Assembly: GCA_009914755.4 (NCBI GenBank)
Contig: CP086569.2
Span: 20,352,001-20,416,000, forward strand
Reading direction: 5' to 3'
From: the human T2T-CHM13v2.0 reference genome, Homo sapiens
Length of the DNA: 64,000 nt
Part shown: positions 13,314 to 39,448 of the stretch, piece by piece
Numbering within the stretch: the stretch's first letter is position 1
Layout of the letters: each line of letters opens with the position of its first letter
The notes under the pieces: generated by a model
The model's database searches: none
What the model was told of the DNA's origin: nothing
Seen by the model: only the letters and a program-made list of their open reading frames with translations
Position numbers and translations under genes: made by a program

Positions 13314-13490
13314 AACCAATTAATTAGCTGAGTATAATAAATCTTTAAAAAAAACCTATTTGCTACATCATGTAAAACTCTTGGGCATTTAGCACCCACT
13401 CACCCTCATCTACTTAAAAAGAGCTTTAAGTCCTGCTACTACCCACAAATCAGCTCAGCTAATTTTCAGTGACATAGCAGCCATGCTCAC

Positions 13491-13855: not shown

Positions 13856-13913
13856 CACAGACAGAGCTGCCGTAGAACTCCCAAGAGCTATTCAGCTTAC
13901 TGTCACTGCAACC
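13856..13913 (-). pseudogene. BCORP1: BCOR-like micro-exon (58 nt)
   Basis: Acceptor cctacag| and donor TCTGTCTGTG|gtgagc. It encodes [18 protein letters not shown], against BCOR ...ASGTWDFYGSSVC. It is in phase with the flanking exon homologues. Confidence 0.55.
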
Positions 13914-14524: not shown

Positions 14525-14653
14525 CCTGTTAGAAACATTTCCATAACTTTGCTGTGGGTCATTTTCATAATGGTTCTGCCTGAGTAGGTGGCCAAAGTGG
14601 GGCCAGCGCCATAGGAAAGGAGGAGGCGGACAATTTCCAAACAATCATTTTCA
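14525..14653 (-). pseudogene. BCORP1: BCOR-like ankyrin-repeat exon
   Basis: Acceptor cctctccatggtgcag| and donor TAACAG|gtgggt. It encodes [42 protein letters not shown], essentially the BCOR ANK segment [42 protein letters not shown]. Confidence 0.75.

Positions 14654-16197: not shown

Positions 16198-16200
<3 letters not shown>

Positions 16201-16237
<37 letters not shown>
16201..16237. repeat. (AC)n dinucleotide microsatellite, about 18 units
   Basis: acacacac... run seen directly. Confidence 0.95.
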
Positions 16238-16239
<2 letters not shown>

Positions 16240-16319
16240 CACAGACATACACATATACATATATACACCATAACTTAAAAATCAGAATCAATCCTACAAG
16301 GGTAACCACAAGAGTTTTG

Positions 16320-16635
16320 TTTGTTTGTTTATTTTGAGACTGTGTCTCAACTCTGTCTGCCAGGCTGGAGTGCAATGGCACAATCATGGTTCACTGCAGC
16401 CTCAACCTCACTGGGCTAGGGTGATCCTCTCACATGTCTCCTGAGTAGCTGAGTAGCTGAGATTACAGGCATGTGCCACCATTCCCAGTTGTTTTTTTTT
16501 TTTTTTTTTTTTTTTGTAGAAACAGGGTTTCACCATGTCATCCAAGCTGGTCTCAAACTCCTAGGCTCAAGTGATCCTGCTGCTTTGGCCTCTCAAGCTG
16601 CTGGGATTACAGGCATGAGCCACCGCATCCAGCCC
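16320..16635 (-). mobile_element. Alu element, minus strand, with an unusually long internal T-run (A-rich linker) and a 5' T-rich tail
   Basis: ttttgagactgtgtctcaactctgtctgccaggctggagtgcaatggc...(t)22...tgtagaaacagggtttcaccatgtcatccaagctggtctcaaactcc...gattacaggcatgagccaccgcatccagcc. Confidence 0.9.
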
Positions 16636-17160
16636 CATGTGTAGTTCTTTTTTCAGTATTATCATTCCAACAATGTAGAGATTATAGTAATAACATGGTA
16701 GAGTAGCAGTGTTGAAGAAGAGTAACTAAAATGAGGCTGAACATTTACGAAGGATATATCCTAACTCTTGTTAAATTTGAAACACTAATTTTTTTATTTG
16801 TGGAAAAAATATATGTAATGTACATTTATCATCTTAACCATTTTTAAGTGTTCAGTTCATGGTCATTAACTCTTTCACATTATTGTGCAACCATCACCAT
16901 CATTCATCTAAAGGACTTTCAACAGGCTCTGTACCCATTAAACAGTAACCCCATTAACCTTTCCTACAAACCCAGGCACCCACCATTCTACTGTCAGTGT
17001 CTATGATTTTGACTTCTCTTAGCATGTCACGAGTGGAATAATAAAGTATTTGTCATTTTACAACATGCATATTTCACTTAGCATAAATGAACGTCCTCAA
17101 GGTTCATCCATGTTACAGCATATGTCAGAAATTCCTTCCTTTTAAAAAGAAATAATATTC

Positions 17161-17418
17161 GGGCTGGGTATGGTGGCTCACTCCCATAATCCCAGCACTT
17201 TGGGAAGCCGAGGTGGGCAGATCATGAGGTCAGGGGTTCGAGACCAGCCGGACCAACATGGTGAAACCTCGTCTGTCCTAAAAATACAAAAATTAGCTAG
17301 GCATGGTGGTGTGTGCCTGTAGTCCCACTACTTGGGAGGCTGAGGCAGGAGAATCACTTGAACCCAGGAGGCAGAAGATGCAGTGAGCTGAGATCGTGCC
17401 ACTGTACTCTGGCCTGGA
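17161..17418 (+). mobile_element. Alu element lacking a poly(A) tail, fused directly to an L1 3' UTR fragment
   Basis: gggctgggtatggtggctcactcccataatcccagcactttgggaagccgaggtgggcagatcatgaggtcagg...actctggcctggaca. Confidence 0.85.
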
Positions 17419-17665
17419 CAGCTCTGTGCAATTGAACAATGAGAACACATGGGCACAGGAAGGGGAACATCACACTCTGGGGACTGCTGTGGAGTGGGGG
17501 GACGGGGGAGGGATAGCATTGGGAGATATACCTAATGCTAGATGATGAGTTAGTGGGTGCAGCGCACCAGCATGGCACATGTATACGTATGTAACTAACC
17601 TGCACAATGTGCACATGTACCCTAAAACTTAAAGTATAATAATAAAAAATAAAAAAAAGAAAAAC
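17419..17665 (+). mobile_element. L1 (young L1PA-type) 3' UTR terminal fragment of about 240 bp with a poly(A) tail
   Basis: ttgaacaatgagaacacatggg...ggagggatagcattgggagatatacctaatgctagatgatgagttagtgggtgcagcgcaccagcatggcacatgtatacgtatgtaactaacctgcacaatgtgcacatgtaccctaaaacttaaagtataataataaaaaat. Confidence 0.85.
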
Positions 17666-17833
17666 AATTTAAGAAAATTTTAAGTAAAGTTTATAATGTT
17701 TTTGTTATTGAATTTTATGTAATTAATTTGTTTTGACTTTGACTAGTAGTTTATAAATTTATTAGTTTTTTTTATTAGAGTTTTGAAAGTTTTTATTTGG
17801 CTTTTTGAACAAGTTATTAGAAAGTTGTGTTTA

Positions 17834-18144
<311 letters not shown>

Positions 18145-18229
18145 ATAATATTTGCTGTATTTATATTAATGGCAAATAAAACAAAAATTTCTTTGCCTGC
18201 TTCTTTCCTGCCAGACCACTAATTTCTAA

Positions 18230-19510
18230 CAAGACACCAATAACACACACTGGGGAAAGGACACCCAGTTTACTAAATGGGGCTGGGGAAACTGGATGTC
18301 CATATGAAGAATGAAACTAGATCACAAAACCTCAACAGATAACAATATCAACTCAAATAACAGACTTAAATTTAAGACCCAAAATATAAATGTACTAGAA
18401 AAAAGCAGGAAATGCTTCAGGACATTGGTCTAGGCCAAGATTTTATGTCTAAGACTTCAAAAGCATGGATAACACAAACAAAAATAGGGAAATTGAACTC
18501 TGCAAAACAAACAATCAACAGGAGTGAAGAGACAATCTATAAAATGGCACAATATATTTGCAAACTGTTCATCCAATAAGGGACTAATATATAAGGAACT
18601 AAGCTCAACAGCAAAAAAAAAATGACATTAAAAGGTAGGCAAAGGATCTGAATAGGCAGTTCTCAAATGAAGACATATAAATGGCCATCATATATATGTA
18701 AAAATGTTCAACATCACTAATCATCACAGAAATACAATTCAAAACCACTGTGAGTTACCATATTACACTAGTCAGAATGGATATTACTAAACAAGACAAA
18801 AAAATAAATTCTGCCAAGGATTTGGAGAAAAGGTTGATTTACAAACTCTTGGGATGTAAATTAGTACAGCCAATATGGAAAACAATATGGAGGTCTCTTT
18901 AAAAACTAAAATTAGAACCACAATATAATCCAGCAATCTGACTAGACAGTCTCTATCAAAGAAAAATAAAAAAGTAAATCCCGATAGGTAAACATGGAAT
19001 TGGCCTAAATGCCGACAGTGAATGAAAGGACAAAGAAAATGTGGTATACATACACAACAGAATATTTTAAGCCATATAAATGAATGAAATGCTGTCACTT
19101 GCAACAACCTGGATGGAATTGAAGGTCATTATGTGAAGTAAAATAAGTCAAGCATAGCAAAAGAAATATCACCTATTCTCACTCATATGTAGGAAAAGTT
19201 GATGTCATGAAGGTAGAGTGTAAGATGATAGTCTCCAGAAGCTTGGAAGTGGGTGTAGGTGTGGGCAAGATAAACAGGGGTTGGTTAATTTACGGTACAA
19301 ATATACAGGCATATCAAAAGAATATGATCTAATGTTTAATACCAGAAAAGGGAGACTACAATTAACAAGAGTATGGTATATTTCAAAATATCTAGAAGAT
19401 AAGGTATGAAATATTCCCAAAACAAAAATAGTAAATGTTTGAAGTAACGCATATCCTAAATAGCCTGACTGGATCATTACAAATTGTATGGATGTATCAA
19501 AATATCACAT
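18230..19510 (+). mobile_element. Ancient L1 (L1M-type) 3' region
   Basis: Diverged L1 ORF2 C-terminal and 3' UTR (caaaaccactgtgagttaccatattacactagtcagaatgg; atgtggtatacatacacaacagaatattttaagccataaaa). It ends in an A/T-rich tail near 19950 after an Alu insertion. Confidence 0.7.
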
Positions 19511-19514
19511 ATAG

Positions 19515-19830
19515 GCAGGGAACGGTGGCTTGTGCTTGTAATCCCAGCACTTTGAGAGGCTGAGACAGGCAGATCACTTGAAGTCATGAGTTCGAGAGCA
19601 GCCTGGGCAACATGGCGAAATCGTGTATCTACAAAAAAACAAAAATTAGCTGGGTGTGGTGGTACATGCCTGTGGTCCCAGCTACTCAGGAATCTGAAGT
19701 AGAAGGATCACTTGAGCCCAGGAGGCAGAGGTTGTAATAAGCTGAGATCGCACCACTGCACTCTAGCCTAGGTGACAGAGCAAGACCTTGCCTAAAACAA
19801 AAAAAAAGAAAAAAAAACAGAAAAGAAAGA
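19515..19830 (+). mobile_element. Alu element with an A-rich tail
   Basis: ggcagggaacggtggcttgtgcttgtaatcccagcactttgagaggctgagacaggcagatcacttgaag...ccactgcactctagcctaggtgacagagcaagacc. Confidence 0.9.
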
Positions 19831-20854
19831 AATCATCACATATGTGATATACATACACGATAGAATATATACCCCAGAAATATGTACAATTATTATGTGT
19901 CAAAAAGAGTTCTTTAACTAAAAACTTGTGATCTATTTAAATTACATGTTGCAAATTCACTTAATATCTGAAAAAGTTACTATTTTTCTAACCATCCAAG
20001 TTGCAGTCTAGAAACTTTAATTATCCAAATACCAGAAATCTAAAGCAACGATGACAGCCATCCTTACATAAACAATCTCAAAATCACCTGTGCCATCAAA
20101 GGCTTTGGGGCCTAAAGATGTATAGATGTGGAATTTGTTGAAGCTGTTGATTGGTACAGGCGTCACATCCATCAGTTCTATAAAAACAACCAAAACTGAA
20201 ACTGTTCCTAGGTTATTACCTATCCAAGCCATTTAACACTTCTGGGAGTTAGTTTCCTCATATGAAAACAGTGATAATAGCTGGCAAAGATGATGACAGA
20301 GTAAAATGAGTTAGTTCAGATCATGTGAGCTTAGAAAGAGCACACAGCCCAGTGCTCAGTTGACATAAGTCAACACTGTCATCATGCATCTTGGGAGGAG
20401 TATGGGTGTAGGGGGCAGGAGTGAGAGGGTGATGAAGGAGCAGTGACTTGGGGAGAAACCCTAAGTCTGAATTCTTCCTCCAGTACTCAGCCCCAGGGCC
20501 ACCTTAACCCTCTCTCAGAAAGAGACCACTCAGGTCTGCTCCACACCCTCACATTTGAACACCTGTGCCCAACCTGCATTGCCACTTCCTGCCTGCTCTC
20601 CACACAGGGCCACCATAGCACAAGCAACACCATATAGAGCTAATAACATCTCTTCCTCTTGCTAATCAGAATCCAAAAGGGCCCATTAAATTTCCCCAAG
20701 TCACCAAGCCCTGAATTTTTTCAAGTTTTATAGCAGAAATAAGTAAACCAGACTGGAGGAAGCTGGAGCAACCTGCCTGACTGCTTGCCCGTTTGCACAC
20801 TGTGACTGCAAAAGCCACCAAATAGCAGGGAGACTGGGGCTAACACAGACATGC

Positions 20855-20935
20855 TAGTCCCCTGATGTGAAGGGGCTAAGCTCTGCTCTCCAAGTCCCCT
20901 GATGTGAAGGGGCTGAGCTCTGCTCTTCAAGTACC
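20855..20935. repeat. Tandem duplication of about 34 bp (cccctgatgtgaaggggctaagctctgctct.caagt)
   Basis: Two adjacent near-identical copies, seen directly. Confidence 0.8.
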
Positions 20936-21019
20936 TCCCACTATCCCATCCCAGCTAGCAAGCCCTGCTTTCCAGCTGGAAGCAGCAGCTGCTCTAGGAG
21001 TGCTCACCAGGACACTCAC

Positions 21020-21260
21020 CTCATAGCCAAGCCATGCTGCCTGCTGCAGGAGAGTCTCACCAGCATGCCTATCGACAATAATTCTCCTTGCTCTCAGCTG
21101 CACTGGGCGAGATTGGTTGGTTTCCTGAGGGGAACATGAGTGTGGCAGCTTCATGGACTGGGAAGCTGGTAGCAACTCTTGCAAGCAGTTGAAGGGCTTC
21201 ATCTCCTGCTTGGATGAAGTCAGATCATAGTTGGAACTGGGTTCAAGTTGCTTTCTGAAT
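21020..21260 (-). pseudogene. BCORP1: BCOR-like exon (pre-ANK region)
   Basis: Acceptor ctgtcccaag| and a consensus donor GAG|gtgagt. It encodes (I)[80 protein letters not shown], against BCOR [52 protein letters not shown]...[24 protein letters not shown]. Confidence 0.75.
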
Positions 21261-21630
21261 CTTGGGACAGTTGACTAAGACAAAACGAATTAGTATACAC
21301 AGTTAAGATTAAGACTACATCCTTTCCACATCCACTGCTTCCCCTCCTCCTTCCTGTAAGACAAACCTGCATGGGGAAGGCAGTTTCCTTTCCTTCCTGG
21401 GAGGTGGAATATCAAAGGAAAAGTGTTACAGACTGGGGTATGAACTTAAATTTTAATAGTTTCCAATTTTATCACCATCAAGGAAGACTTCCCCTCTAAG
21501 ACAGGGAAGTTAGGAGTCCAGTAAAAGAAAGGCTTTACATCCTTGAGAAAAGCAGGTAGGTGGGGAATGTTGGGGTGAGGGGAAATAGCCTCTATATAAG
21601 CCCAAGGAGAAAACAAGTGCCAAGAGGTAT

Positions 21631-21956
21631 CTTGCCATCAGCATTCTCAACGTAGCACTTCCCTGTTAGTAGGAACCCCTGCCTCAGGTCCTGAGATATC
21701 AAGTGCTTGGTTTTGCATTGTCTCTTCCCAGATGGCTTCTCACTGTTATTGGTGTATTTCTGCAGCAGGGAGGCAGCAGGGCACTCCTCTTCCTTGTCTG
21801 TGCACAGCATGTCTGTCTTAATGCTCTCATTAACTTTCTGCTGCTTATCAGGCAGCCTCAACAATGGTATGCAGCTTGAGTGAGTCGGCTTTTGGCTGCT
21901 TGCATTGTTGGATAAAACCTTATTCTTCGGTGGAGGGCCTGAGAACAGAGACAAGG
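21631..21956 (-). pseudogene. BCORP1: BCOR-like exon; the donor dinucleotide is apparently mutated (AAG|at)
   Basis: Acceptor ccatctatatttag|CC. It encodes [108 protein letters not shown], against BCOR LPVFSGSPPMKS...[73 protein letters not shown]. The expected GT after ...GGCAAG is AT here. Confidence 0.7.
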
Positions 21957-22062
21957 CTAAATATAGATGGTGCAGCATGGTGGCAGAATAGCTAACAGGA
22001 AAGAGACATGGGGAAAAGGGCAAAAAAAAGGAGTCATTACATAGTTGTAGCCCATGCAGAAA

Positions 22063-22077
22063 GAAAATCCCACTGTT
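22063..22077. repeat. Target-site duplication (gaaaatcccactgtt) at the 3' flank of the full-length L1
   Basis: The same 15 bp recurs at 28243-28257. Confidence 0.85.
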
Positions 22078-22293
22078 TTTTTTTATTATTATTATACTTT
22101 AAGTTTTAGGGTACATGTGCACAACGTGAGGATTGTTACATATGTATACATGTGCCATGTTGGTGTGCTGCACCCATTAACTCGTCATTTACATTATGTA
22201 TATCTCCTAATGCTATCCCTCCCCACTCCCCCCACGCCACAACAGTCCCCGGTGTGTGATGTTCCCCTTCCTGTGTCCATGTGTTCTCATTGT

Positions 22294-26130
<3,837 letters not shown>

Positions 26131-26199
26131 TCCTGTCGTTGTGATGTTAGCTGGTTATTTTGCTTGTTAGTTGATGCAGTTTCTTCCTAGCCTTGATGG

Positions 26200-27210
26200 T
26201 CTTCACAATTTGTCATGTTTTTATAGTGGCTGATACCAGTTGTTCCTTTCCATGTTTAGTGCTTGCTTCAGGAGCTCTTTTAGGGCAGGTCTGGTGGTGA
26301 CAAAATCTCTCAGCATTTGCTTATATGTAAAGGATGTTATTTCTCCTTCCTTATGAAGCTTAGTTTGGCTGGATATGAAATTCTGGGTTGAAAATTCTTT
26401 TCTTTAAGAATGTTGAAAATTGGCCCCCACTCTCTTCTGGCTTGTAGAGTTTCTGCTGAAACATCAGCTGTTAGTCTGATGGGTTTCCCTTTGTGGGTAA
26501 CCCAACCTTTCTCTCTGGCTGCCCTTAACATATTTTCCTTCATTTCAACTTTGGTGAATCTGACAATTATGTGTCTTCGAGTTGCTCTTCTCAAGGAGTA
26601 TCTTTGTGGCATTCTCTATATTTCCTGAATTTGAATGTTGGCCTGCCTTGCTAGATTGGGGAAGTTCTCCTGGATAATATCATGCAGAGTGTTTTCCAAC
26701 TTGGTTCCATTCTCCCCATCACTTTCAGGTACACCAATCAAATGTAGATTTGGTCTTTTCACATAGTCCCATATTTCTTGGAGGCTTTGTTCATTTCTTT
26801 TTATTCTTTTTTCTCTAAACTTCTCTTCTCACTTCATTTCATTCATTTGATCTTCCATCACTGATACCCTTTCTTCCAGTTGATCGAGTCAGCTACTGAG
26901 GCTTGTGCATTCATCACGTAGTTCTCGTGCCATAGTTTTCATCTCCAACAGGTTCTTTAAGGACTTCTCTGCATTGGTTGATCTAGTTAGCCATTTGTCT
27001 AATCTTTTTTGAAGGTTTTTAACTTCTTTATCATGGGTTCGAACTTCCTCCTTTAGCTCGGCAAAGTTTGATCATCTGAAGTCTTCTTCTCTCAACTCAT
27101 CAGAATCATTCTCCGTCCAGCTTTGTTCCATTGCTGGTAAGGAGCTGCCTTCCTTTGGAGGGGAGAGGTGCTCTGATCTTTAGAATTTTCAGTTTTTCTG
27201 CTCTGTTTTT
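26200..27210 (-). pseudogene. L1 ORF1 remnant
   Basis: The 91-aa ORF at 26337-26612 (MPQRYSLRRATRRHIIVRFTKVEMKENMLRAAREKGWVTHKGKPIRLTADVSAETLQARREWGPIFNILKEKNFQPRISYPAKLSFIRKEK) is L1 ORF1p C-terminal sequence. Confidence 0.8.
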
Positions 27211-28242
27211 TCCCCATCTTTGTGGTTTTATCTACCTTTGGTCTTGGTGACAGTGACATACAGATGGAGTTTTTGTGTGGATGTCCTTTCTGTTTGTTAG
27301 TTTTCCTTCTAACAGTCAGGACCCTCAGCTATAGGTCTGTTGGAGTTTGCCAGAGGCCCATTCCAGACCCTGTTTGCCTGGGTATCAGCAGTGGAGGCTG
27401 CAGAGCAGTGAATACTGGTGAATAGCAAATGTTGCTGTCTGATCATTCCTCTGGAAGTTTTGTTTCAGAGGGGTACCCACCCATGTGAGGTGTCAGTCTG
27501 TCTCTACTAGGGGGTGCCTCCCAGTTAGGCTACTCAGGGGTCAGGGACCCACTTGAGGAGGCAGTCTGTCCATTCACAGATCTCAAGCTGCATGCTAGGA
27601 GAAACACTACTGTCTTCCAAACTGTCAGACAGGGACATTTAAGTCTGCAGAGGTTTCTGCTGCCTTTTGTTTGGCTATGCCCTGCCCCTGGAGGTGGAGT
27701 CTACAGAGGCAGGCAGGCCTCTTTGAGGTACAGTGGGCTCCACCCAGTTTGAGCTTCCCGCTGCTTTGTTTACCTATCAAGCCTTGGCAATGGCGGGCAC
27801 CCATCCCCTAGCCTCGCTGCTGCCTTGCAGTTTGATCTCAGACTGCTGTGCTAGCAATGAGCGAGGTTCCGTTGGCATAGGACCCTCTGAGCCAGGTGTG
27901 GGATATAACCTCTTGGTGTCCCATTTGCTAAGACCATTGGAAAAGTGCAGTATTCAGGTGGGAATGGCCCGATTTTCCAGGTGCCATCTGTCACCCCTTT
28001 CCTTCGCTAGAAAAGGGAATTCCCTGACCCCTTGTGCTTCCTGGGTGAGGCAATGCCTTGCCCTACTTTGGCTCATGCTCGGTGTGCTGCACCCACTGTC
28101 CTGCACCCACTGTCCAACAGTCCCCAGTGAGATGAACCCGGTACCTCAGTTGGAAATGCAGAAATCACCCATCTTCTGTGTCGCTCATGCTGGGAGCTGT
28201 AGACTGGAGCTGTTCCTATTCAGCCATCTTGGACAATATTTC

Positions 28243-28257
28243 GAAAATCCCACTGTT
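28243..28257. repeat. Target-site duplication (gaaaatcccactgtt) at the 5' flank of the full-length L1
   Basis: Identical to 22063-22077. Confidence 0.85.
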
Positions 28258-28468
28258 AACTCTTACTTTGGAGCAACTTCAATTTTAAAATTAAGTTTTC
28301 AGACATAATTATCCCTCATTTAAATGGAAAATAGGTTAACACATCAAACTGCAAGTAACAATTTTCTGCAAAGTGCTCAGACAAGAGAACAGAGCACTCT
28401 CGTACCAACTCTCTCTGTACATTCCACAAGGAAGTGGGTAGGGTAGTCAAGAAGTGGCCTCTGCATAC

Positions 28469-28708
28469 CTTCTTCGTTGTCACTGGGTTTAAGAAATTCT
28501 TCCAACCAGCTTCTGTTGCCTTTGACCTCTGCCCTTTTCTTGCTGAGTTTCTCTTTCATGATATCACAATCCCAGGCAGTGACCTCAGGCTGGACTGTCT
28601 GGGTCACTTCCTTCCTGCCTTGCAGACTAGGTTTGTTCTCTGCTGCCAACACCTGCTGCTCCTACTGTTCTCTAAGGTGCATCAAATGGTGTTTCTTAGG
28701 ATGTAGCC
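28469..28708 (-). pseudogene. BCORP1: BCOR-like exon with a TGG-to-TAG nonsense codon
   Basis: Acceptor tacatttacag| and donor GAAGAAG|gtatgc. It encodes [78 protein letters not shown], against BCOR [80 protein letters not shown]. Confidence 0.75.
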
Positions 28709-29204
28709 CTGTAAATGTAATATACACCTTCAGGTTGGTCAGCTCACTATAATGTGGGTCTTCTAAGTAGACAGAGGAATTTGTTACTTCCCTCTAGGGC
28801 CAGGTATCTAATGAATAAATAACTAAAAATTAATCCAAATGCTGCCTTGAAAGAACAAATGACTTTATGCATCACCAGTAGTGTGAGGGGAGGAGAAGGG
28901 AAAGGAGTGTGGTTACTCTCTCTGATTTTGGGAGAGAACCTAATTATTTTTTACCCTCTCTGGGCTTGAGTGCCTGCATCTGGCTGTAAAGCAAGTAAGT
29001 TATGAGTGGAGTCTGTGGGGCTCCATGGTGGAAATCTCATGGAAGAGGAGTGGGAATAAAAACTCTTCACTGCTATGTGTCATGGCTTCCTTCCACTGAT
29101 TCTGTTTATGGGGCTACATGCCACACATCAACAGGCCATGTCTGTCCACTGTGACTGTATGCACAGGCCCACTGAGAAGGCAGCTAAAGGTGACAAAACT
29201 CACC

Positions 29205-29467
29205 TATATAAACCTGTTTTTGCTTGTTTTTTAGGAAAGAGTCCTCTGGCAACTTCTCTGCAGTAGTCTCTGTCTGGTTGCTGTCACTTGAGACTTTGTG
29301 TTTCCTTTCCAGTTGGAGGATGGGGCTGTGCATCACATCCATAGCTACCTGGTCGGCAGCTGGCTCACCTACAGGCTGCCTTTCCATTAAATACTTCTCT
29401 ACAGGAAGATCTTCATCCTTTAGGGCTTTAAAGGAATTGTGCTGTTTGTTTCCAGGACTATGCTTGC
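29205..29467 (-). pseudogene. BCORP1: BCOR-like exon
   Basis: Acceptor ttttctctcctgctag| and donor ATAG|gtgagt. It encodes ...SPGNKQHNSFKALKDEDLPVEKYLMERQPVGEPAADQVAMDVMHSPILQLERKHKVSSDSNQTETTAEKLPEDSFLKNKQKQV, against BCOR ...[82 protein letters not shown]. Confidence 0.75.
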
Positions 29468-30369
29468 CTAGCAGGAGAGAAAACCAGAATACATAAGTGA
29501 ATTCAAAAATCACCAAGAGAAGGCAGGATTCAGGGAACAGCTGAGACCATGCCAAGGTAATCTGCTATTGACAGATGCTTCTTTAGAAACTGGAGTTCTC
29601 ACATTGTTAATATCAAGTTCTCATAAATAGACTTGTCCAAAGGAAGGATACACTGAAGATGAGCAGCAAGCAAAGCAGAAAGTTAGACATACACCACACT
29701 CATAATTCTCTCCTTCTATCTCTGTATATTAGGGGAATGAGACAAATAAGAAAGAAGATGAGACATCAATGCTATCTTTTTAAAAAAAAATATTACAGTC
29801 CTTTCTTTCAGCAGCATGATCCAATCAAGCCAGGACCGGCATAAATATCTCTACAGTAATACGTGCTGAGGTCATTATTTTGAAATAAAAGGCTGATGAG
29901 ATGAAGACACAAAATATACCCAAAATGTCATCTACTGAAGTGGTAACACCAATATTCACTTGGACCAACAGCAGAGATCATGAAGAAGGAGGGAAGGGAG
30001 ACAGCATGTCAAAAGAAACCTAAACCCTTAATGGGCAGAAGTAATCATCTCTTCCATAGGGCCCATGGTCCAGGACATGGCAGTTGCCTGCAAAATCAGC
30101 AGAGGGAAACAACTGCCAGAGGAAGGCTGAGAACCTGGGCAGACTTAAGGTGCTGCGAAGAGGGGTCTGGGAAAAGCCAAAGACAAGGTTTGACAGCACA
30201 TGCACAAGTTCAGAGACAATTTAAAAAAACTCAGTCTGCTGGTTGCACAAATGTGCAAGGAAATGTGGAAGGAAAAGCTTTTCACTGAATCCAAGGAGCT
30301 TCCATTTCCTGTTCAACATAGGACCACCACAATGAGGACACTGGTCACACCAGCTGGGACTAATCAAAT

Positions 30370-30448
30370 GTTTGTAGAACTACAGACAGCAATTTTGTAT
30401 GGAAAATGTATGTAGAACTACAGACAGCAGTTTTGTGTGGAAATGAGG
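30370..30448. repeat. Tandem duplication of about 40 bp (tgtagaactacagacagca.ttttgt.tggaaa)
   Basis: Two adjacent copies, seen directly. Confidence 0.75.
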
Positions 30449-31438
30449 AATATGTCACCAGAAACTGGATGAAAGGCTACCCTTGCTAAAACAAGTTCAA
30501 GGAAGTTGGCAGAATTGCCTTCATGTCCAAGGATGTTGTGAAAGGCAGGACTTAAGAGCGATGAACTAGGATATCTAGAAGAACACTAAGTCTTAAAACA
30601 TTCATGGTACTATATGGCTTCTTCTGGCAAACTACCAGCAAAATGAGAGAAAAGAGAAATGATTTAAAGACAAAATCTGTAATTAAAAAGAAAGCAAAAT
30701 GAATATATTTGGCAAACTCTGTCTAGTCATGTAAAGAAAAACAAAGTGGTTTCAAAAGAATAAAAACAACATATAGCAAAGCTATCATTTGCTAAAGAGA
30801 TAGTTCAGATATAAGGAAAACAGGTGCTATTCATCAAGGCAATGGGATAATGAGCCTGAAGGCATTTGAGAGATTTTGGAGGCAAGCTATGGCCTTGCAG
30901 GCAAGTACACCCCCTCAAGTATCTATTCCCTGCATTTTGTTGCAGTGATCTTTGGCTGCCCCAGCAATGGCTCAAGCTGGCCCAGATGTGCCTCATGTCA
31001 CACTGCCAGAGGGGATAAGCCTTAAACTATAATAATATCCATATAGTTCTGACTCTACAGGTACACATAATCCCTGAGCCAGGGCCACGTTCACCTGCAT
31101 TATAAAAGATGTTTTGGACAGCCTGGGGTTTCAGGCAGAGACATGGCATAGGGAGATAGCCAGGACAGAGTTCCCACTATAGTAATGCTTTGTGGAGCTG
31201 TGAGTCTGGAGTCAACTCCAAGAGCCCAGAACTGTAGAACAACCAGAGTGCAACTTCAGCCTGGAAGAGCTATAGGAATGTAACTCCAAACCATGAGAGT
31301 TTCTGGGTGGACTAAAGCCCAGCAAAATCATTCAGGCAGGAATGCCTAGGCCTTGAGGGCTGAACTCTTACCTCAGTGTACATGATGTAAGACATGAAAT
31401 CAAAAGATATTATTGTCCAGCTTTATAACTCAGTGTTG

Positions 31439-31740
<302 letters not shown>

Positions 31741-32087
31741 ACTCAGTGTTGTTGTTTTTCTCCCTCTTTTGTGTTTTGGGCTTACTTGGAACCAGTTACT
31801 CCTTTCTTCTTGCCTATTCTCCATTTTTAAATGGGAATGTCTTTCCCATGCCTGCTCCACCATGGCATTTTAGAAGCACATAACTTCACAGGCTCACAGT
31901 AGAAGAGAAATTTGTCTTATAGTAAATTAGGTCTTGTGTCCCATTCATATCTGATTAAGAAGAGATTCTAGATTTTGGACTTTTGAGTTGATGCTGGAAT
32001 GAGTTAAGATTGTGGAGCTATTGGGACAGAATGAATACATTCTGCATATGAGAAGGACAGGAATTTTCAAGACTACAGATGGAATAT

Positions 32088-32455
32088 TATGGTTTGAATG
32101 TTTCCCAATATTCAAGTGTTCGAAACCTAGTCCCCAATCCAACAGTGTTGAGAACTGGGACCTGCAAGAGGTAATTAAGTCATGACCATGGGACATTAAT
32201 TAATGTCATTACTGTGAGAGTGAGTTAGTTATTGTGGAACTGAGTTCATAATTAAATTAAATGAGTTTAGTCCCCTTCTTCTCTTTCCCTTGGGCTCTCT
32301 TTCCCATCTGCCTTCCATCATGGGATGCAACTGGAAGATGGAGCTTGCCAGAGCAGTCCCTCATAATTCTTGGCCTCCAGAACTATGAGCAAATACATTT
32401 CTGTTAACTATAAATTACCCTGTTTGTACCAGTAGAAAACATACTAAGACATGAA
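32088..32455 (+). mobile_element. MaLR-family solitary LTR (THE1/MST/MLT1-like, diverged)
   Basis: The start ggaatattatggtttgaatgtttccc parallels the THE1 consensus TGATATGGTTTGGCTGTGTCCCC. Further on, ggtaattaagtcatgaccatgg and ...ctccagaactatgagcaaatacatttctgttaactataaattaccc parallel ggtaattgaatcatggggg and gaactgtgagtccattaaacctctttcctttataaattaccc. Confidence 0.6.
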
Positions 32456-34728
32456 TTCTTCTAGTTAGATCATTCAACTTCTTTGATCCAATTAGCCTCC
32501 CCTGAATGTACCATGGGAGGGAGTGGGGATGTAGAGTGAAAACCTAAGTATTATCTTAGGAAATGCCATGTGCAAGTGGAAAAGTATACTTTTAAACTTT
32601 TAAAGTGTACTGTCTTCTCTCCTTAACTCCTTTAAGGTAGAAAACATGGTTTGAAAAAAGTGATTGCATGGTGTCACAATGCCTTTGAGAGTCACAATCA
32701 GGAAGCAGCTTAGCTAGTGTGGGACCCAACCCAGAATGAACTTCCCTTCCCACATCAAATATCAGATTAAGAAGCTCTTAACCTGAGTGTTTTAGATTCT
32801 ACTTTTGTCCTTTATATCTGAACTACAGATCTCATATGGTCACCTATATCTCTAACACTCTCAACTTCGTATAAGGCATTTTTCTTGAGGAGATAGTTTT
32901 CCAATTAAGTTTTACCCCTACTGCAAAATTATCTCTCATCCACCTGACCTTTTGCCCAAACTGAGAGCATCTTTTACTGGAAGAGTTGTGATGAGTTATT
33001 TCACAGGATGAAGTCAGTGGGCAATGATTGGCTAGTAACCTCATCTCTCTGCTCAGTGAATGACACTACCTCTATAAGAGCCCTGGCTGACTCTTGTCTA
33101 CTCCAAAATTTCCCATCTGGCAAAAGCTGCCCAGTGAGGGTAGGGAGGTTTCCCCTTCACATACCACCTTTTGCTCCCCTCTTCATGAGGAGACCAGCCA
33201 GAAAAGGATGGCCAGCCTGCTACACAACTGTGCCTTGGAAGGTTGTAACTCATCTCATGGGCATTCTCCCGACACCCCATGTAGTACCAGGAAACCCAGG
33301 GGACCATGACCTCATCCTGAACTATTATCAAGAACCCTCCATTGCTAAACGTGGGGTTCACTGCAATCACATTTACTCACATAGAGTTCCCCTACCTCTC
33401 AAAAGGATTTTTCCCCAAAACTGGTTCCATTCACCATTTCCCAAATCCTCCAAGTCATTAAAAAAAGGGACAATAATTTCAAAGAATTGAGGTATCTTCA
33501 CTATTACCTCTTCGGTCAAAGATTCTCATTCCTCTGAATGAACCCCTGCCACTCCCCTCACAAGATATTACATGGCCTTACAAAAGCCAGTAATAATTCT
33601 GCCCACAGTGATGGCCCAAGATACACAGACTACCAGCTATACAGGTGAGAAGTTCTATGTTCCATTGCTGCACATCTTAACCTGGATGTTCTCAAATTAG
33701 ACTATTTCAGTCATCACACACAGCATTAATCACATGGCAAAGGATATAAATTAAGAGATGTAGGGGTCCTAACCATTAGACTCTACCATAGCTGTTATTT
33801 TAAGCCCTTCTAAAAAGCAGAAAACCATGTGCCCTTGATAGATAAGAATGTAAGTCTGTTATCTGAGGTCTACCACCTGCTCCCTGCAACATGGTCTTAT
33901 GAGACACAGCACATACATTCCATAATTTATCACAGCTGTGCCATAGTAGTACCTCATAGAAGTATCTCCATGGCAACATTTACAAGTCTCCACAGCAAAA
34001 ATAAATTCTGCCACTGTTGGTGCCACAGATGCTGGGCCCTAACAAGATGGGAGGAGACTGAGACTTTTGAGGGTTTCCCATGATCCATTTCCTCTGCAGG
34101 CAACTGTATCAGCTCCAGCTGAGACTAACCTTGTTATAACTTATGCCCTCTCCATCACGGGCATCAACTTTCTCTGTATCTAATTCAAGATAATCTACAA
34201 AGCATTCAGGCATATTCTCCTGGAAGAGAAGTTCCTGAGCCAATAATTTCTGCCCAGGCATTGCGACCAAACACACCCCAGGTCTGCTTCAGTGAAGTGG
34301 CTGGCAGAAGAGAAGGAAACCCACATTATCGAAGGAAGGGCTAATATGTACATCTACTATGTATCAACAAAAATAAATCAATAATTAAAAACCTAAAAAT
34401 TGTATTATACTGTTTCTAACTATAGGGCCAAGCCTCCTTTATAAAACGAGATGTGTCCTTGTCTAAAGGAAAATAATACTTCATAGATTATTAAAAGGAA
34501 ATTATCTTTCACAGATAATTCATTCCTGATTGCCACAATGATTAAAAAGACAATCAGTCCTTCACTCCACAGATGGCAAAAACAGCCCATTTTTCTGAGA
34601 AGACACCAAACAGAAGTCAGAATCTTGTATGTGATTGCTTTATCTCACCTCCCTGGGCCCTGGGAACAGGATCACCCTGTTGCCACCAATGTGGTAATTG
34701 AGCCACAAAGCAAGTGGCTCAGCTGTAC

Positions 34729-34858
34729 CTACATCTCTCACAGTTATTCTGGCTGGCAATATCCTCCTCCAGAAGACATTTTGGCTTTTTGTCCTGATTT
34801 CCTTTCCACCTCTCTGAGTCAGCTGTGCTGAATTTGTATGGCTTGGCGTCCTTGGTTT
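34729..34858 (-). pseudogene. BCORP1: BCOR-like exon
   Basis: Acceptor ttttttttccattcag| and donor GATGTAG|gtacag. It encodes [42 protein letters not shown], against [48 protein letters not shown]. Confidence 0.75.
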
Positions 34859-35526
34859 CTGAATGGAAAAAAAAAGAGGGATGAACATCAACACCTTATT
34901 ATAAATGCTATTTCATTTGTCTTACACTAAAGAAAAATATGTCCAAACAAATGTTTGCCCAAAATTAACCATGGACATAAACTCTTTAACCATACTGTTT
35001 TCAAGGAGTTTATGTATCTAGACACACAAGCTATAAGCATGTATATCAGTGAACACATTTTTGTGCACATTCTCTTTTGGAAATAAAAACACAGCATACA
35101 CACAAAACAGAAATAGCAGGAAAAAAATCTCACAAGGAATATAGGCTATAAACTACCTTTTGAATATTTGGAAATAAAATTTAACTTTAAAGGCTTATAT
35201 AATATTATAATGACAATAATATGAAAAACATAAATTTGAAGAACTGAACCCATAATAAACACTAGGCAGACATAAAATACTGTCCTTTTTTAATTCTTCT
35301 AGTCATGTAATTAAAATGGGCACTCAGGGGGTCATTTAAATAACTTCATTTATTTTTATAAAGATAAAACAAATTCTTTTTAACATTCCAAAAAAAGTGG
35401 CCTATTCATCTTTGAAATAAAAGTAAAAATCTTAGAAAATTCCTATACAACATGTATCATAATTAACTATCAAGTTAAATATATGCTATATCCCATTCTG
35501 CCAAGAGGTACAGGAGTAAGCGAGAG

Positions 35527-35569: not shown

Positions 35570-36230
35570 GTTGCACGATCCTGCAGAACCACAGCTGCTA
35601 CACATCTTCTCAAGCAAGTATCAAGTAAGGTATTCTGAGCAGCTAGATATATTGGTTATTTTATCAACAGAAAAATAAAATCAATTGATAGGTAAATGCC
35701 ATGCATTTTTTAGAAATTATTCACAATAATTAAAACTTCTGTTACAGGCTGAGCATCTCTTATTGTAAATGCTTGGGACAATTATTTTAATTTTTTATCA
35801 GATTTTGGAATATGTACATATACATAATAAGGTATCTTGAATATGAGAACCAAGTCTATACAAAAAAATCATTTATGTTTCACATACACTTTACACACAT
35901 AGCCTAAAAGTAATTTTATTCAGTATTTTTAACAATTTTGCATATGTAACAAAGTTTACGTTAAGTATTTGTTTGTGGGCTTTTCCACTTGGGGCATGAT
36001 GGTGGCATTCAAAAGTTTCAGATTCTGTAGCAAAGTATCCAGAAACATGTATATCCTAAGTACTACTATTCACATTCCCTTACTGGACATAATATATACA
36101 TTCAAATTACAATAAGCTTCATTAGTCAAATCTGCATAGTGCCATGTCCTACCATACTCCCCCAGTACTCTTTACATATTTAAACTGTAACTACAGGTAA
36201 AGTTGCTAAAAGGTGGGTAGAGGGGGTGAC

Positions 36231-39200
36231 CTGCAATGCCCGTTGCTCCCAACTGAGCTGACTAGAATCTGCATACAGTTCAGTAGTAACACACTTGAGT
36301 CGGTCAGCCATGCAACCTGCTGAGGTGGTGACTCTCTTTACCAGGTTAGATGGCTTTGGTTTCAGAAGTTTGCCATCACTTGATTTGGCCTCATTGGCTC
36401 CATCTTTGGTGTAAGTAGAGATTATGTCCATACTTAGTGGGGCACTGCCAAGGCAATATGGTTTGGGATACTCTTGGATTTTACCAAAAGTTACAGCATG
36501 ACCATCACTCACTAGAGTTGGCTCCAGGAATGATGTTGAAACTGGCATCCCTATGTTCTCTTTGTTGGCTGGAGTCCGTTTGAGAGCATAAGCTTCATGC
36601 AAGTCACCAATGTGCCCCAACTCCTCTCTTAGCATGATAAAATCACCATGCTGCTGCAGGGATGCCTTGACAATTGGGGGCTTGGCAGGCTTGGCATTCT
36701 GACCAATATTTTTCACTGTAAAGCATGGTTTGGACATGTTTGCCTCAGTTTTGGCATCTGGTTCTTCTTGGAGAAGGTCTATGTAAACAATCTTTTTATT
36801 TCTGCTAACAGTCTTCCCTTGGTTCCAGCTGAGGTTTAGTTTTAGATTGTCAGTGTGGACTTCTGGATGAAACTCTGTACTGCCAGCTTCCAACATCTCA
36901 GAAAATTGATTCTGGACAGTTGGGTCTTTGTGGCAGGCTCTTTCATGGGAATGGGATCTTTCTCTGGTTTCTCCTCTTTTTTCTCTTTGTTGGTTGGAGT
37001 CTGTTTGATAGTATAAGGTTCATGAAAGTCATCAATGTGCCCCAACTTCTCTCTTAGGGTGATGAAATCACCATGCTGCTGCAGGTATGGCTTGACAATT
37101 GGGGGACTGGCAGGGTCAGCATTCTGGCCAACACTTTTCATTATGAAGCTGGGTTTGGACACATTTGCATCAGTTTTAGCATCTGTTTTTTCTTGGAGAT
37201 GGTCTACATAAACAACCTTATCACTTCTGATAATAATCTTACCTTGATTCCAGCTGGGGTTCAGTTTTAGACTGTCATTGGGGACTTCTGGATGAAACGC
37301 TGTACTGCTAGCTTCCAGCATCTCAGAAAACTGATTCTGGAGAGTTGGGTCTTTGCGGCAGGCTCTTTCTTGGGAATGTGACCTCCTCTCTGGTTTCTCC
37401 TTTTTGGTGATCTCTATGGGCCTGTGTGTTATCAACATGGGTTGCACCATGCCAAATCCCAGGGCATCTTGGTAGATCAGAAACTCTGGATGGCCCATGG
37501 GCACCACATAAGGCAGTCTAGGCTTTGAGGCAAGACACCCCAGAAAGAGACTGTTGTTGGGCAACAAAACTGGATGAGGGTAGACAGGCCCTTTGTCATG
37601 TAAGGAGAAGGGTCTTATAGCAGTGGCCTTAGGTACTGGGTAAGGAAAGTAACTTCTGGGGTGGGAAATTGATGGGGGCCTGAAAGCCTCATTTGGAGGT
37701 AGAAATAGGGGGCTTGGTTGAAGGCCATTCTTATTTGCTTTGAAACTCAGTTCTGGGCTGCTGGCTTTGGCAACCTTGCTGCTAGTGCTGCTGCTTTGCT
37801 TGACAGGCACGGTTGGAGGTTGGCCCACTTGCTGAATGATGGATGATGTGGTATCCACAGAGCTCCTGTTGGTCCTAGTGCCATCTGCCCTATGTGGGGT
37901 TGGGGACTGGTAATATAGAGTTAATATAGAGGTGGGGTGGCCTGCACAGGACACTGACCCCAAAACATTAGGGATCATAGTTCCTTTGCCATTCATGCAA
38001 AGGTAAAAAGAACTTTGCTGTTGTATTATCATCCAGTCCATCACCTTGTTTTTCAACATGCTTTCACCATTGTTCTCTTCATTAGTTCTTGGCCTGGGTA
38101 CTACCCAGGATGATGGATCAGTGCTAATAAATTCAGATCTATAGATAGCACAGCCATTTCTTAGAGAAGATATCTCTTTCAGAATCTCACTTCTGGAGAG
38201 CACTAAGCCACTTCCAGCCATGCTGTGAACCAGGCCCATGGAAGCCATCTTTTTCATGTGATCAGCTTTGGAAGCATCTACCTCCACCACTTTAGAAGAC
38301 AACTCTACTGGCTTATTTGAGATGCTTTTGGTAATACTCTGCTTCTCTAACAGAGGAGGTGAGACACCATCTTTCCTGTCTTGAGCCACTGTCTTCCAGG
38401 TGTACATGGGGACTGGCTGAGCACTCTCACCCACTTCCAGGGTCTCAGGATATTTGCTATTGGAGAGCCTCGCTGTGGGGAACTCACTGCCCATCATGTT
38501 TGCCTTTGACAGTGTCACTGAAGGAGCGGTAGAGATCCTGGCATAATGCTCATGGAACTCAGAGAATATGTCTGCAACAGCCTGGGTGGGAAGGTGGACC
38601 TGGGGTGAGGGCTGAGGGGAGGCACAGAACACGAGAGTTGTATCGCCTGGAAAGCCACTAGCAACTGCCTTGGCAAATGGCACCCTGGTTGTTTCCTGTT
38701 CTGAATATGAGGATAGGTGTGGGAATTGATGGCGTTCCGGGGACTGATGGCCATCCTCCGTGGTACGCTTTTGTCTGCACAGCGGAAGAGAGGTGGAATG
38801 GCTGAGATGGCCAAAGCTGTTGAAAGCCTCATGGGTGATGCCAAGGACAATGGGATGTGGGGACTGAAATAGCAAGGTGATGGCAGGTAGGAAAATTGCT
38901 TCCTATTTCTGTTTCCTGGAAAACATAGCAGCTGGGCCAAGTTGGAGGACTGCTGAGGTAGCCAGAACATGTTCTGTGAATACATATTTGGAAAATCAAG
39001 GGAAGGATGGATGGCTGGTGTGGCACTCTCCATGTAAGGATTGACCCAGGGTAGCTGCAGGTAATGAGCATCATAGATGTTGCAAGGCCTATGATTGTGG
39101 CTGGTAGGCCTGTCCAAGCCAAGTGTTTCTGCTGTGCTGAAAGCATTTTGTATTCCAGGCGGTGTTTTACATACAGCAGTGAAGCAATCTGGGGGTTTTT

Positions 39201-39448
39201 CAGAGACAGCAAAATCTTCCACTATCTCAGGTATATTTAGTTTGAACTGCATCTATGGATTTATTTCTGAAGAAAACCCAAGGCCACCTACAGTGTTCAT
39301 GGTAACCTCATGATCTTGCTTGGAGTTCATTCTGCTCAAACTAGAAAGACAGTGTTTCTGGGGAACAGGAGCCCTTCCTGTTTCAGGCCTGTGTGGTCCA
39401 TGATCAGTGCTTCCAGGCCGTCAATCTGATAAGCCAATTTGCATCCAC
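36231..39448 (-). pseudogene. BCORP1: Large exon of the BCOR-derived pseudogene (homologue of BCOR exon 4, about 3.2 kb), read in three different frames, with an internal tandem duplication
   Basis: Candidate acceptor ttgttgctctgccaag|GTGGATGC at the 5' end and donor GCATTGCAG|gtcacc at the 3' end. The translation is collinear with BCOR from ...LAYQIDGLEALIMDHTGLKQEGLLFPRNTVF (BCOR [31 protein letters not shown]), through MQFKLNIPE...[11 protein letters not shown]...[18 protein letters not shown]...[14 protein letters not shown]...[16 protein letters not shown]...[18 protein letters not shown]...[21 protein letters not shown]...NEENNG...[24 protein letters not shown]...[17 protein letters not shown]...LQQHGDF...[20 protein letters not shown]. 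Stop-free sequence switches frame twice: the 245-aa, 677-aa and 238-aa ORFs overlap in different frames. An in-frame TAG replaces the Glu codon before MQFK. Confidence 0.85.
36545..37400 (-). repeat. Two tandem copies of an approximately 423-427-bp unit inside the large exon (copy B about 36545-36967, copy A about 36968-37400)
   Basis: ttggttggagtctgtttgatagtataaggttcatgaaagtcatcaatgtgccccaacttctctcttagggtgatgaaatcaccatgctgctgcaggtatggcttgacaattgggggactggcagg recurs about 421 bp away as ttggctggagtccgtttgagagcataagcttcatgcaagtcaccaatgtgccccaactcctctcttagcatgataaaatcaccatgctgctgcagggatgccttgacaattgggggcttggcagg. The junction motif tctctggtttctcct occurs at both unit ends. The peptides are [29 protein letters not shown]...NQGK...[19 protein letters not shown], and BCOR has a single copy. 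Confidence 0.8.

What the first reader, a model, noticed from the sequence alone, without database searches (positions are those of the whole stretch)
36545..37400. Pseudogene-specific ~423-bp tandem duplication inside the large BCOR-like exon
A roughly 141-codon unit ([22 protein letters not shown]...NQGK...LQQHGDF..LRE.LGHI.D.HE.Y...) occurs twice in tandem, about 421-427 bp apart. The junction motif tctctggtttctcct is present at both unit ends. As far as I recall, BCOR has only one copy of this segment. The two copies are substantially diverged (about 60% aa identity, by eye roughly 80-85% nt), so the duplication is old. The copies sit in different reading frames, so even before the other lesions the duplication would have truncated the protein shortly into the second copy.
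Basis: seen in the sequence. Interest (0 to 1): 0.6.

Follow-up and report, generated by a model that had tools for sequence, protein, structure and literature searches.

The report
Ancient tandem duplication in Y-linked BCORP1
A 426-base piece of the big exon of a dead Y-chromosome copy of the BCOR gene was duplicated head-to-tail before apes and Old World monkeys split; it is a real but ordinary scar in a known pseudogene.

Summary
Window 36556-37405 (gene on the minus strand) holds two head-to-tail copies of a ~425-nt unit, 85% identical (TRF score 1271). The host is the large exon of a BCOR-like gene whose exons span 39434-11158. X-type BCOR from a hominoid-like contig, other mammals and birds has one copy.

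The duplication is not human-specific. Chimpanzee, two orangutans and two colobine monkeys all carry both copies. Orthologous copies differ by 1-10%, paralogous copies by 14-17%, and either copy differs from X by 18-27%. Copy A and copy B form separate clades (100% and 96% bootstrap). Substitution counts put the event at about 1.7 times the ape/Old World monkey split, roughly 43-55 Mya.

The two unit starts are 426 nt (142 codons) apart. The human frame shift comes from a 1-bp deletion about 20 nt into copy B, shared only with chimpanzee. Orangutan reads in frame through both copies. Colobines have one A fewer at the junction, so an original unit of 425 or 426 nt cannot be decided.

The exon evolves neutrally (omega 0.66-1.17). 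This is an ordinary pseudogene lesion of low interest, apparently undescribed and hidden by gene models that each cut out one unit.

The parts
36980..37405 (-). Copy A, the 5' copy in gene sense. It is 426 nt: 425 nt of unit plus one extra A at the junction. It lies in the BCOR reading frame in human.
   Evidence: TRF array 36556-37405; blastn A against B; boundaries read from the three boundary sequences; translation matches BCOR residues EEKPERRS...TNKE.
36556..36979 (-). Copy B, the 3' copy in gene sense. It is 424 nt in human because of a 1-bp deletion. After its first 6 codons it is in a different frame from copy A.
   Evidence: conceptual translation in the X-derived frame.
36977..36982 (-). 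Duplication junction: an A6 run (GAGAA + A + AAAGAGGAG) in hominoids and A5 in colobines. It is a blunt or +1 junction, not a join inside the nearby AAAGAG microhomology.
   Evidence: Boundary comparison of upstream|A, A|B and B|downstream in six Y sequences and the primate X exon.
36953..36961 (-). Site of the 1-bp deletion: human and chimpanzee CCAGAG-AAAGATCCC against orangutan CCAGAG-AGGAGGTCCC. It throws copy B out of frame. Its exact position within these 9 nt is ambiguous.
   Evidence: Six-species alignment; orangutan and colobines lack it.
36842..36844 (-). TAA that ends the long human ORF, after 45 sense codons of copy B (39 of them out of frame).
   Evidence: ORF 36842..38875 on the minus strand, 677 aa; P0031 (551 aa) matches window 38497..36842 exactly.
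36219..39434 (-). Host exon: the large BCOR-like exon, homologous to the large coding exon of X-linked BCOR. It carries frameshifts and one stop codon in the X-derived frame.
   Evidence: tblastn of X-type P0010 in three frames; lesion list against the primate X exon; 80.5% nucleotide identity to the primate X exon.
11158..34865 (-). Downstream BCOR-like exons of the same gene, for context: 34865-34722, 29465-29202, 21948-21631, 21274-21008, 14676-14491, 13934-13857, 13656-13475, 11445-11158.
   Evidence: tblastn of the Pygathrix Y-type protein P0023, which carries BCOR, ankyrin and PUFD Pfam domains.

Best explanation
The feature is a germline head-to-tail duplication of a 425- or 426-nt segment inside the large exon of the Y-linked, X-degenerate copy of BCOR (human BCORP1, called BCORY in other mammals).

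Origin (inferred): it arose once on the Y lineage, after X-Y divergence and after a Y-specific internal deletion. It predates the split of apes and Old World monkeys, at roughly 43-55 Mya by substitution counts. It became fixed on the non-recombining Y. The two breakpoints lie beside, not inside, a short AAAGAG direct repeat, and the junction is blunt or has one extra A. This points to an end-joining or replication-slip error rather than homologous unequal exchange.

After the event (shown): the two copies have diverged at the neutral Y rate, in step with the species tree.

Effect today (shown): the segment has no function. In human and chimpanzee a later 1-bp deletion about 20 nt into copy B shifts the frame, so the long residual ORF (ATG 38497) ends at TAA 36842-36844 inside copy B.

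Shown: the presence, boundaries, phylogenetic distribution, Y-specificity and neutral evolution of the duplication, and the secondary nature of the human frame shift. Inferred: the date, the mutational mechanism, and whether the original unit was in frame.
For: - Repeat is real.
- Host is BCOR-like: the top hits are BCL-6 corepressor proteins and the exons map along the minus strand.
- Human identity: P0031 matches the window exactly. The cluster holds 'BCL-6 corepressor-like [Homo sapiens]' on a contig of 62,460,029 bp, which is the published length of the T2T human Y (my own knowledge).
[quoted passage not shown] BCORP1 is annotated as a Y pseudogene (PMC13321555).
- Both copies occur in chimpanzee, two orangutans, Rhinopithecus and Pygathrix.
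- Divergence: orthologous 0.9-11%, paralogous 13.7-17.5%, and 24-27.6% against the X-type exon of an unidentified mammal. The reconstructed ancestral copies differ from the hominoid-type X exon by 17-19%.
- NJ tree: A clade 100%, B clade 96%, Y against X 100%.
- Both copies share the Y-specific deletions (3 bp and 33/45 bp) relative to X.
- X-type BCOR has one copy and no internal repeat.
- Dating: 28 differences in 422 sites between the reconstructed copies at the catarrhine ancestor, against 4.7% mean ancestor-to-tip divergence.
- Neutrality: whole-exon omega 0.66-1.17 among Y orthologues. The N:S ratio on the post-duplication stem is 18:10, against a neutral S fraction of 0.24-0.27.
- Frame: 426-nt spacing of the unit starts; the 1-bp deletion is limited to human and chimpanzee, and orangutan is open in frame.
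Against: - The Y assignment of the window and of the primate loci was not verified by mapping. The Pygathrix locus sits at the end of a 117.5-Mb record, which is large for a Y.
- The date assumes a constant neutral rate and no gene conversion. One 2-nt patch in copy B of chimpanzee and orangutan looks like A-to-B conversion, so the true age could be greater.
- No New World monkey, tarsier, gibbon, gorilla or macaque DNA could be obtained. The older bound and the ancestral junction state are therefore open.
- None of the 10 unit copies has a stop in the X-derived frame, where about 4-5 would be expected. This hints weakly at some past constraint.
Confidence: 0.9

Rival explanations
1. One reading: the original duplication was 425 nt, out of frame. 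It would itself have truncated the protein a few dozen codons into copy B, making it a primary inactivating lesion or at least intrinsically frame-breaking. Hominoids later gained one A at the junction.
For: Colobines have A5 at the junction. That is exactly left end GAGAA plus right start AAAGAG with no extra base, so it is the simplest junction. One later insertion in hominoids would explain the rest. In colobines the frame is indeed broken at the junction.
Against: All hominoids have A6, a 426-nt spacing of 142 codons. Loss of one A from an A6 run in colobines is mutationally at least as likely as a gain (general knowledge of homopolymer indels). Two 1-bp deletions near the 5' end of the exon are shared by all five species, so the duplication need not be the first lesion.
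Confidence: 0.4
2. The duplication arose in frame (142 codons) while the Y copy was still a working gene. For a time it encoded a BCOR-like protein with a repeated internal segment, and the gene decayed only later.
For: Hominoid spacing is 426 nt, and orangutan is still open in frame through both copies. The reconstructed pre-duplication unit is an open frame. No X-frame stop is shared between hominoids and colobines, and there is none in any of the 10 unit copies. X-Y omega of about 0.41-0.44 implies long constraint on the Y copy before decay.
Against: The N:S ratio on the stem after the duplication (18:10) does not differ significantly from neutral. Two frameshifting 1-bp deletions upstream are shared by all catarrhines examined. 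The unit has no Pfam domain. An open frame over 346 codons in one lineage can be chance. Omega among Y orthologues is near 1.
Confidence: 0.2
3. The two-copy structure is ancestral to X and Y (or to BCOR generally), and the X gene lost one copy.
For: None found.
Against: A and B are much closer to each other (14-17%) than to X-type exons (24-27.6% against a non-primate mammal; 17-19% for their reconstructed ancestors against the hominoid-type exon). Both carry the same Y-specific deletions. Y against X has 100% bootstrap support. Mammalian and avian BCOR all show one copy, and there is no trace of a second copy in the X exon.
Confidence: 0.01
4. It is an assembly artefact, or a recent human-specific event with unusually fast divergence.
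For: None.
Against: Six independent assemblies from five further species show the same array with copy-specific substitutions that follow the species tree. Independent contigs assembled from public sequencing runs (Logan) and a JGI contig encode the same A-into-B reading.
Confidence: 0.01

Closest known systems
BCORP1 (BCL6 corepressor pseudogene 1, formerly BCORL2), the X-degenerate relic of BCOR on the human Y; called BCORY in other mammals
   Same: The window encodes exactly the ORFs found in human-derived clusters. It has the BCOR exon series with introns, about 80% nucleotide identity to the X exon, frameshifts and stops and neutral evolution. Orthologues lie on ape records of Y-chromosome size.
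   Different: Nothing differs; this is the host locus. The internal duplication is a detail for which I found no paper, and current protein models remove it.
X-linked BCOR, large coding exon (exon 4 in the usual numbering, from my own knowledge)
   Same: The duplicated unit corresponds to the single X segment EEKPERRSRSHER...AGTNKEN, and the flanks are colinear.
   Different: X has one copy, keeps 33-45 nt that the Y unit lacks, and is under strong constraint.
Somatic BCOR internal tandem duplications in tumours such as clear cell sarcoma of the kidney (from my own knowledge, not tested here)
   Same: They are in-frame head-to-tail duplications inside a BCOR coding exon.
   Different: Those lie in the last exon (PUFD domain), are tens of nucleotides to about 100 nt long, and are somatic and oncogenic. 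This one is germline and about 45 million years old, lies in the large exon with no Pfam domain, and sits in a pseudogene.
Canid BCORY1/BCORY2 (whole-gene duplication of a functional BCORY)
   Same: It is a duplication affecting the Y copy of BCOR (PMC3759724; PMC6627929).
   Different: There the whole gene is duplicated and reported as functional. Here only 426 nt inside one exon of a decayed gene are duplicated.

Membership tests
Tandem (head-to-tail) segmental duplication | Two direct copies, adjacent with no spacer, similar far beyond chance | tested here: met
   TRF gives period 425, 2.0 copies, 85% matches, score 1271. blastn E is about 1e-139 and there are only two copies in the window.
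Tandem (head-to-tail) segmental duplication | A single historical event: copy-specific substitutions shared by orthologues | tested here: met
   A and B form separate clades, each following the species tree, with 100% and 96% bootstrap.
X-degenerate Y-linked pseudogene of BCOR (BCORP1/BCORY) | Homology to BCOR over the whole exon series, with introns retained (not a processed copy) | tested here: met
   tblastn maps 9-10 exon blocks over 39434-11158 on the minus strand. The orthologous colobine protein has BCOR, Ank and PUFD Pfam domains.
X-degenerate Y-linked pseudogene of BCOR (BCORP1/BCORY) | Location on the male-specific Y | tested here: inconclusive
   The human model P0024 lies on a 62,460,029-bp contig. 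The chimpanzee and orangutan loci lie on 36-68 Mb records. That these are Y records, and that the locus is named BCORP1, is my own knowledge plus the literature. No mapping tool was available.
X-degenerate Y-linked pseudogene of BCOR (BCORP1/BCORY) | Disrupted reading frame and loss of constraint | tested here: met
   Frameshifts at X nt 36, 127 and 795, the deletion in copy B, and one X-frame stop in human. Omega is 0.66-1.17 among Y orthologues, against 0.41-0.44 for Y against X.
Feature of BCOR proper (X-linked gene) | The same two-copy structure present in X-type BCOR | tested here: not met
   One copy is seen in the hominoid-type X exon L009, in two other mammalian exon sequences, and in mammalian and avian proteins. 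Self-comparisons find nothing at E<=1 for DNA, and the next-best protein hit has E=2.5.
Oncogenic BCOR internal tandem duplication | Located in the last coding exon / PUFD domain; somatic | tested here: not met
   The unit lies in the large upstream exon and matches no Pfam domain. PUFD maps to the last exon, 11445-11158. It is present in the germline of six assemblies.

The most novel reading that the evidence does not exclude
The duplication was born in frame (142 codons) in a still-functional BCORY of stem anthropoids. For some millions of years the Y would then have encoded a BCOR paralogue with a repeated internal segment, and the decay of the gene (with independent frame-breaking indels in the human/chimpanzee and colobine lineages) came afterwards. 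The orangutan array, still open in frame, would be a remnant of that state.
Probability: 0.2. Interest if true: 0.3.

Novelty: new member of a known kind. Interest (0 to 1): 0.15.

Why it matters
The finding matters little for biology at large. It is one more lesion in a known, neutrally evolving Y pseudogene. It has three modest uses.

- **Phylogenetic marker.** It is a clean rare genomic change, with datable copy-specific substitutions, shared by apes and Old World monkeys. Its status in New World monkeys and tarsiers would place the event on the primate tree and help date the decay of BCORY.
- **Annotation.** Automated gene models in human, chimpanzee, bonobo, orangutan and Rhinopithecus each cut out one unit as a false intron, at different points. 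They then present the locus as a 'BCL-6 corepressor(-like)' protein. Anyone using those models should know this, for example in protein arrays or proteomics that report 'BCORP1'.
- **The human ORF.** The C-terminus of the only long human ORF (ATG 38497 to TAA 36842) is an out-of-frame reading of copy B. Any product made from a BCORP1 clone would end in 39 residues unrelated to BCOR.

Tried and rejected
- **TRF on the colobine loci found no array**. This first suggested a single copy in Old World monkeys, but blastn showed both copies, with small indels. The 'single chimeric copy' reading of proteins P0003 and P0023 was therefore dropped. Those proteins are gene-model artefacts.
- **Attempts to get more taxa for the ancestral junction and the older age bound mostly failed.** Exact look-ups of the lemur (P0015) and lemming (P0006) proteins found no contigs. 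The metagenome scan returned only one locus, which turned out to be a useful hominoid-type X BCOR exon. A second protein search with a Y-type profile gave no new species and even missed known Y proteins.
- **Microhomology-mediated origin at the flanking (C)AAAGAG repeat was rejected.** Such a join would leave one AAAGAG at the junction, whereas two are present, separated by AA(A).
- **Constraint tests found no significant departure from neutrality.** This holds for the units and for the whole exon. The lack of stops in the units (0 against about 4-5 expected) is marginal, and I do not build on it.
- **No RNA family and no protein domain** were found in the region (Rfam; Pfam). The plus-strand ORFs of 63 and 65 aa mirror each other in the two copies and have no support.
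- **The literature search found no description of the duplication**.

Full report
**1. The observation.** The repeat is real. Tandem Repeats Finder reports one array at 36556-37405: period 425, 2.0 copies, 85% matches, no indels, score 1271. The repeat finder gives a 300-nt direct pair with spacing 425. A pairwise alignment shows colinear similarity over the whole unit. blastn of one copy against the window finds only the two copies (85.7% identity, E about 1e-139) and no third.

The gene lies on the minus strand. In gene sense, copy A is 37405..36980 and copy B is 36979..36556. It is the beginning of each copy. It does not recur at the far end of copy B, so it is not a flanking repeat.

**2. 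The host.** Translation of the minus strand gives BCOR-like protein. The database search returns BCL-6 corepressor proteins. tblastn maps a complete series of BCOR-like exons from 39434 down to 11158. The large exon is 39434-36219, and the last exon encodes the PUFD domain.

The 551-aa protein P0031, found on many contigs assembled from public sequencing runs (Logan) and one JGI contig, matches the window exactly at 38497..36842. The same cluster family contains 'BCL-6 corepressor-like [Homo sapiens]' on a 62,460,029-bp contig. I recognise that length as the T2T human Y (my own knowledge).

Li et al. [quoted passage not shown] I therefore take the locus to be human BCORP1. The name and the Y assignment are inference, not a mapping result.

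**3. Specificity to the Y copy.** X-type BCOR sequences from several mammals and birds carry the segment once. A metagenome scan returned a 3.2-kb contig, L009. Its 957-codon ORF is 98.5% identical to a gibbon BCOR fragment, so it is a hominoid-type X exon. It has no internal repeat at E<=1 in DNA, and the next-best protein self-hit has E=2.5. A second X-type exon, L006, behaves the same way.

The human Y exon is 80.5% identical to L009. Both copies lack 33-45 nt and a further 3 nt that X retains, so those deletions predate the duplication.

**4. Distribution and age.** I fetched genomic DNA for five primate gene models:
- chimpanzee, L001
- Bornean and Sumatran orangutan, L002 and L003
- Rhinopithecus roxellana, L004
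- Pygathrix nigripes, L005

All five carry both copies. TRF finds the array in the apes. It misses the array in the colobines, but blastn finds it there.

| Comparison | Divergence |
|---|---|
| Orthologous copies, human-chimpanzee | 0.9-1.2% |
| Orthologous copies, human-orangutan | 4-5% |
| Orthologous copies, human-colobine | 9-10% |
| Paralogous copies (A against B) | 13.7-17.5% |
| Either copy against the X-type exon L006 (unidentified mammal) | 24-27.6% |

The reconstructed catarrhine-ancestor copies differ from the hominoid-type X exon L009 by 17-19%.

An NJ tree gives an A clade (100%), a B clade (96%) and Y against X (100%). Each copy follows the species tree.

Parsimony reconstruction gives 28 differences in 422 sites between copies A and B at the catarrhine ancestor. 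Mean divergence from that ancestor to the tips is 4.7%. With a constant rate, the duplication is about 1.7 times as old as the ape/Old World monkey split. Taking 25-32 Mya for that split (my own knowledge), this gives about 43-55 Mya. This is a minimum if gene conversion has acted. One 2-nt patch in copy B of chimpanzee and orangutan carries the copy-A state.

**5. The reading frame.** In human the unit starts are 426 nt apart, which is 142 codons. The first six codons of copy B (KEEKPE) are in frame with copy A.

A 1-bp deletion follows: CCAGAG-AAAGATCCC in human against CCAGAG-AGGAGGTCCC in orangutan. It lies at about 36953-36961 and shifts the frame. The ORF ends at TAA 36842-36844, after 45 codons of copy B. 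The deletion is shared with chimpanzee only.

Orangutan reads in frame through 346 codons covering the upstream flank, A (minus one codon), the junction [10 protein letters not shown] and the downstream flank. Colobines have A5 instead of A6 at the junction, plus a 2-bp deletion further into copy B.

Comparing the three boundaries with the X sequence, the junction is GAGAA + (A) + AAAGAGGAG. With A5 no extra base is needed, giving a unit of 425 nt that is out of frame. With A6 the unit is 426 nt and in frame. An outgroup is needed to choose.

**6. Constraint.** Among Y orthologues the whole exon gives omega of 0.66-1.17, with 1.05 for human-chimpanzee and 1.17 between the colobines. Y against X gives 0.41-0.44. 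On the two stems after the duplication, N:S is 18:10, against a neutral expectation of S at about 0.24-0.27. This is not significant.

All five species share two 1-bp deletions near the 5' end of the exon. Stops in the X-derived frame are all lineage-specific. None of the 10 unit copies has an X-frame stop, although about 4-5 would be expected. I regard this as marginal.

The picture is a gene constrained for much of its history after X-Y divergence. It was already damaged by the catarrhine ancestor and has been neutral since. Whether the duplication came before or after the loss of function cannot be decided with the taxa at hand.

**7. Mechanism.** This was a single mutational event on the Y germline. 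The breakpoints lie next to a short AAAGAG direct repeat present at both ends of the unit in X and Y. But the join is not within that repeat, because both AAAGAG copies survive at the junction. This fits a blunt or +1 end-joining or template-switch error better than homologous unequal exchange (inference). Fixation on a non-recombining chromosome needs no selective advantage. The unit matches no Pfam domain, and the window has no Rfam hit.

**8. Comparison with what is known, and novelty.** The pseudogene is known. Within the searchable library I found no paper mentioning the duplication. Current protein models hide it, each by cutting out one unit-length piece:
- The human, chimpanzee and bonobo models keep A.
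- The orangutan model keeps B.
- The Rhinopithecus model and the Celera human model jump from A to B at a homologous point.

It is unrelated to the somatic BCOR internal tandem duplications of tumours (last exon, PUFD; my own knowledge). It also differs from the whole-gene BCORY1/2 duplication of canids.

**9. Verdict.** It is an ordinary kind of feature, a previously undescribed detail of a known pseudogene, and of low interest. Its main uses are as a phylogenetic marker and as an annotation caveat.

Noticed in passing
window 36556-37405; proteins P0001, P0002, P0003, P0024, P0025, P0029: Automated gene models in five species each remove one unit-length piece as a false intron, at different points. 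They present the locus as a 'BCL-6 corepressor(-like)' protein, so the duplication is invisible in protein databases.
   Followed up: yes
Copy B: L001 (chimpanzee) and L002/L003 (orangutans), homologous to window ~36630-36632: Two adjacent sites in copy B read ATG in human and colobines but ACC in chimpanzee and orangutan. ACC is the state of copy A and of X. This suggests short A-to-B gene conversion, or parallel double changes.
   Followed up: partly
window ~39400-38600 (5' part of the large exon): Two 1-bp deletions (X exon nt 36 and 127) are shared by all five catarrhine Y copies. Hominoids add a third at nt 795, which restores the frame (net -3). Colobines instead have an 8-bp deletion at nt 752. 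No X-frame stop is shared between hominoids and colobines, and human has only one stop in 957 codons.
   Followed up: partly
window 36842-38875, minus strand: A 677-codon ORF (TTG start; 551 codons from ATG 38497) survives in this pseudogene. Its last 39 residues ([14 protein letters not shown]...STLTI) are an out-of-frame reading of copy B.
   Followed up: yes
window 36219-39434 against L009: A 2026 paper on anti-BCORP1 autoantibodies states that BCOR and BCORP1 share >99% nucleotide identity (PMC13321555). The large exon here is only 80.5% identical to a hominoid-type X BCOR exon.
   Followed up: partly
Units A and B in all five species (10 sequences): There is no stop codon in the X-derived frame in any copy, although about 135 inferred substitutions at a 3.4% stop probability predict about 4-5 stops. 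The whole exon is otherwise consistent with neutrality.
   Followed up: partly
P0015 (Prolemur simus, UniProt A0A8C9DKU9): This lemur protein shares 8 derived residues with the reconstructed Y unit against both X sequences, and has a related but shorter internal deletion. It is probably the lemur Y copy. Its model shows one unit, but no DNA was retrievable to check.
   Followed up: partly
L005 (Pygathrix nigripes CM105552.1, 117.40-117.44 Mb of 117.52 Mb): The Y-type BCOR copy sits at the very end of a 117.5-Mb record, which is large for a primate Y. This may be a scaffolding join of Y sequence onto another chromosome.
   Followed up: no
window 35535-35567: A perfect (TG)16.5 microsatellite lies in the intron just downstream of the large exon.
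   Followed up: no
L009 (ERZ1645191 NODE-486, 3226 bp, coverage 25): A metagenome assembly contig is host DNA: the complete large exon of a hominoid-type X-linked BCOR.
   Followed up: yes
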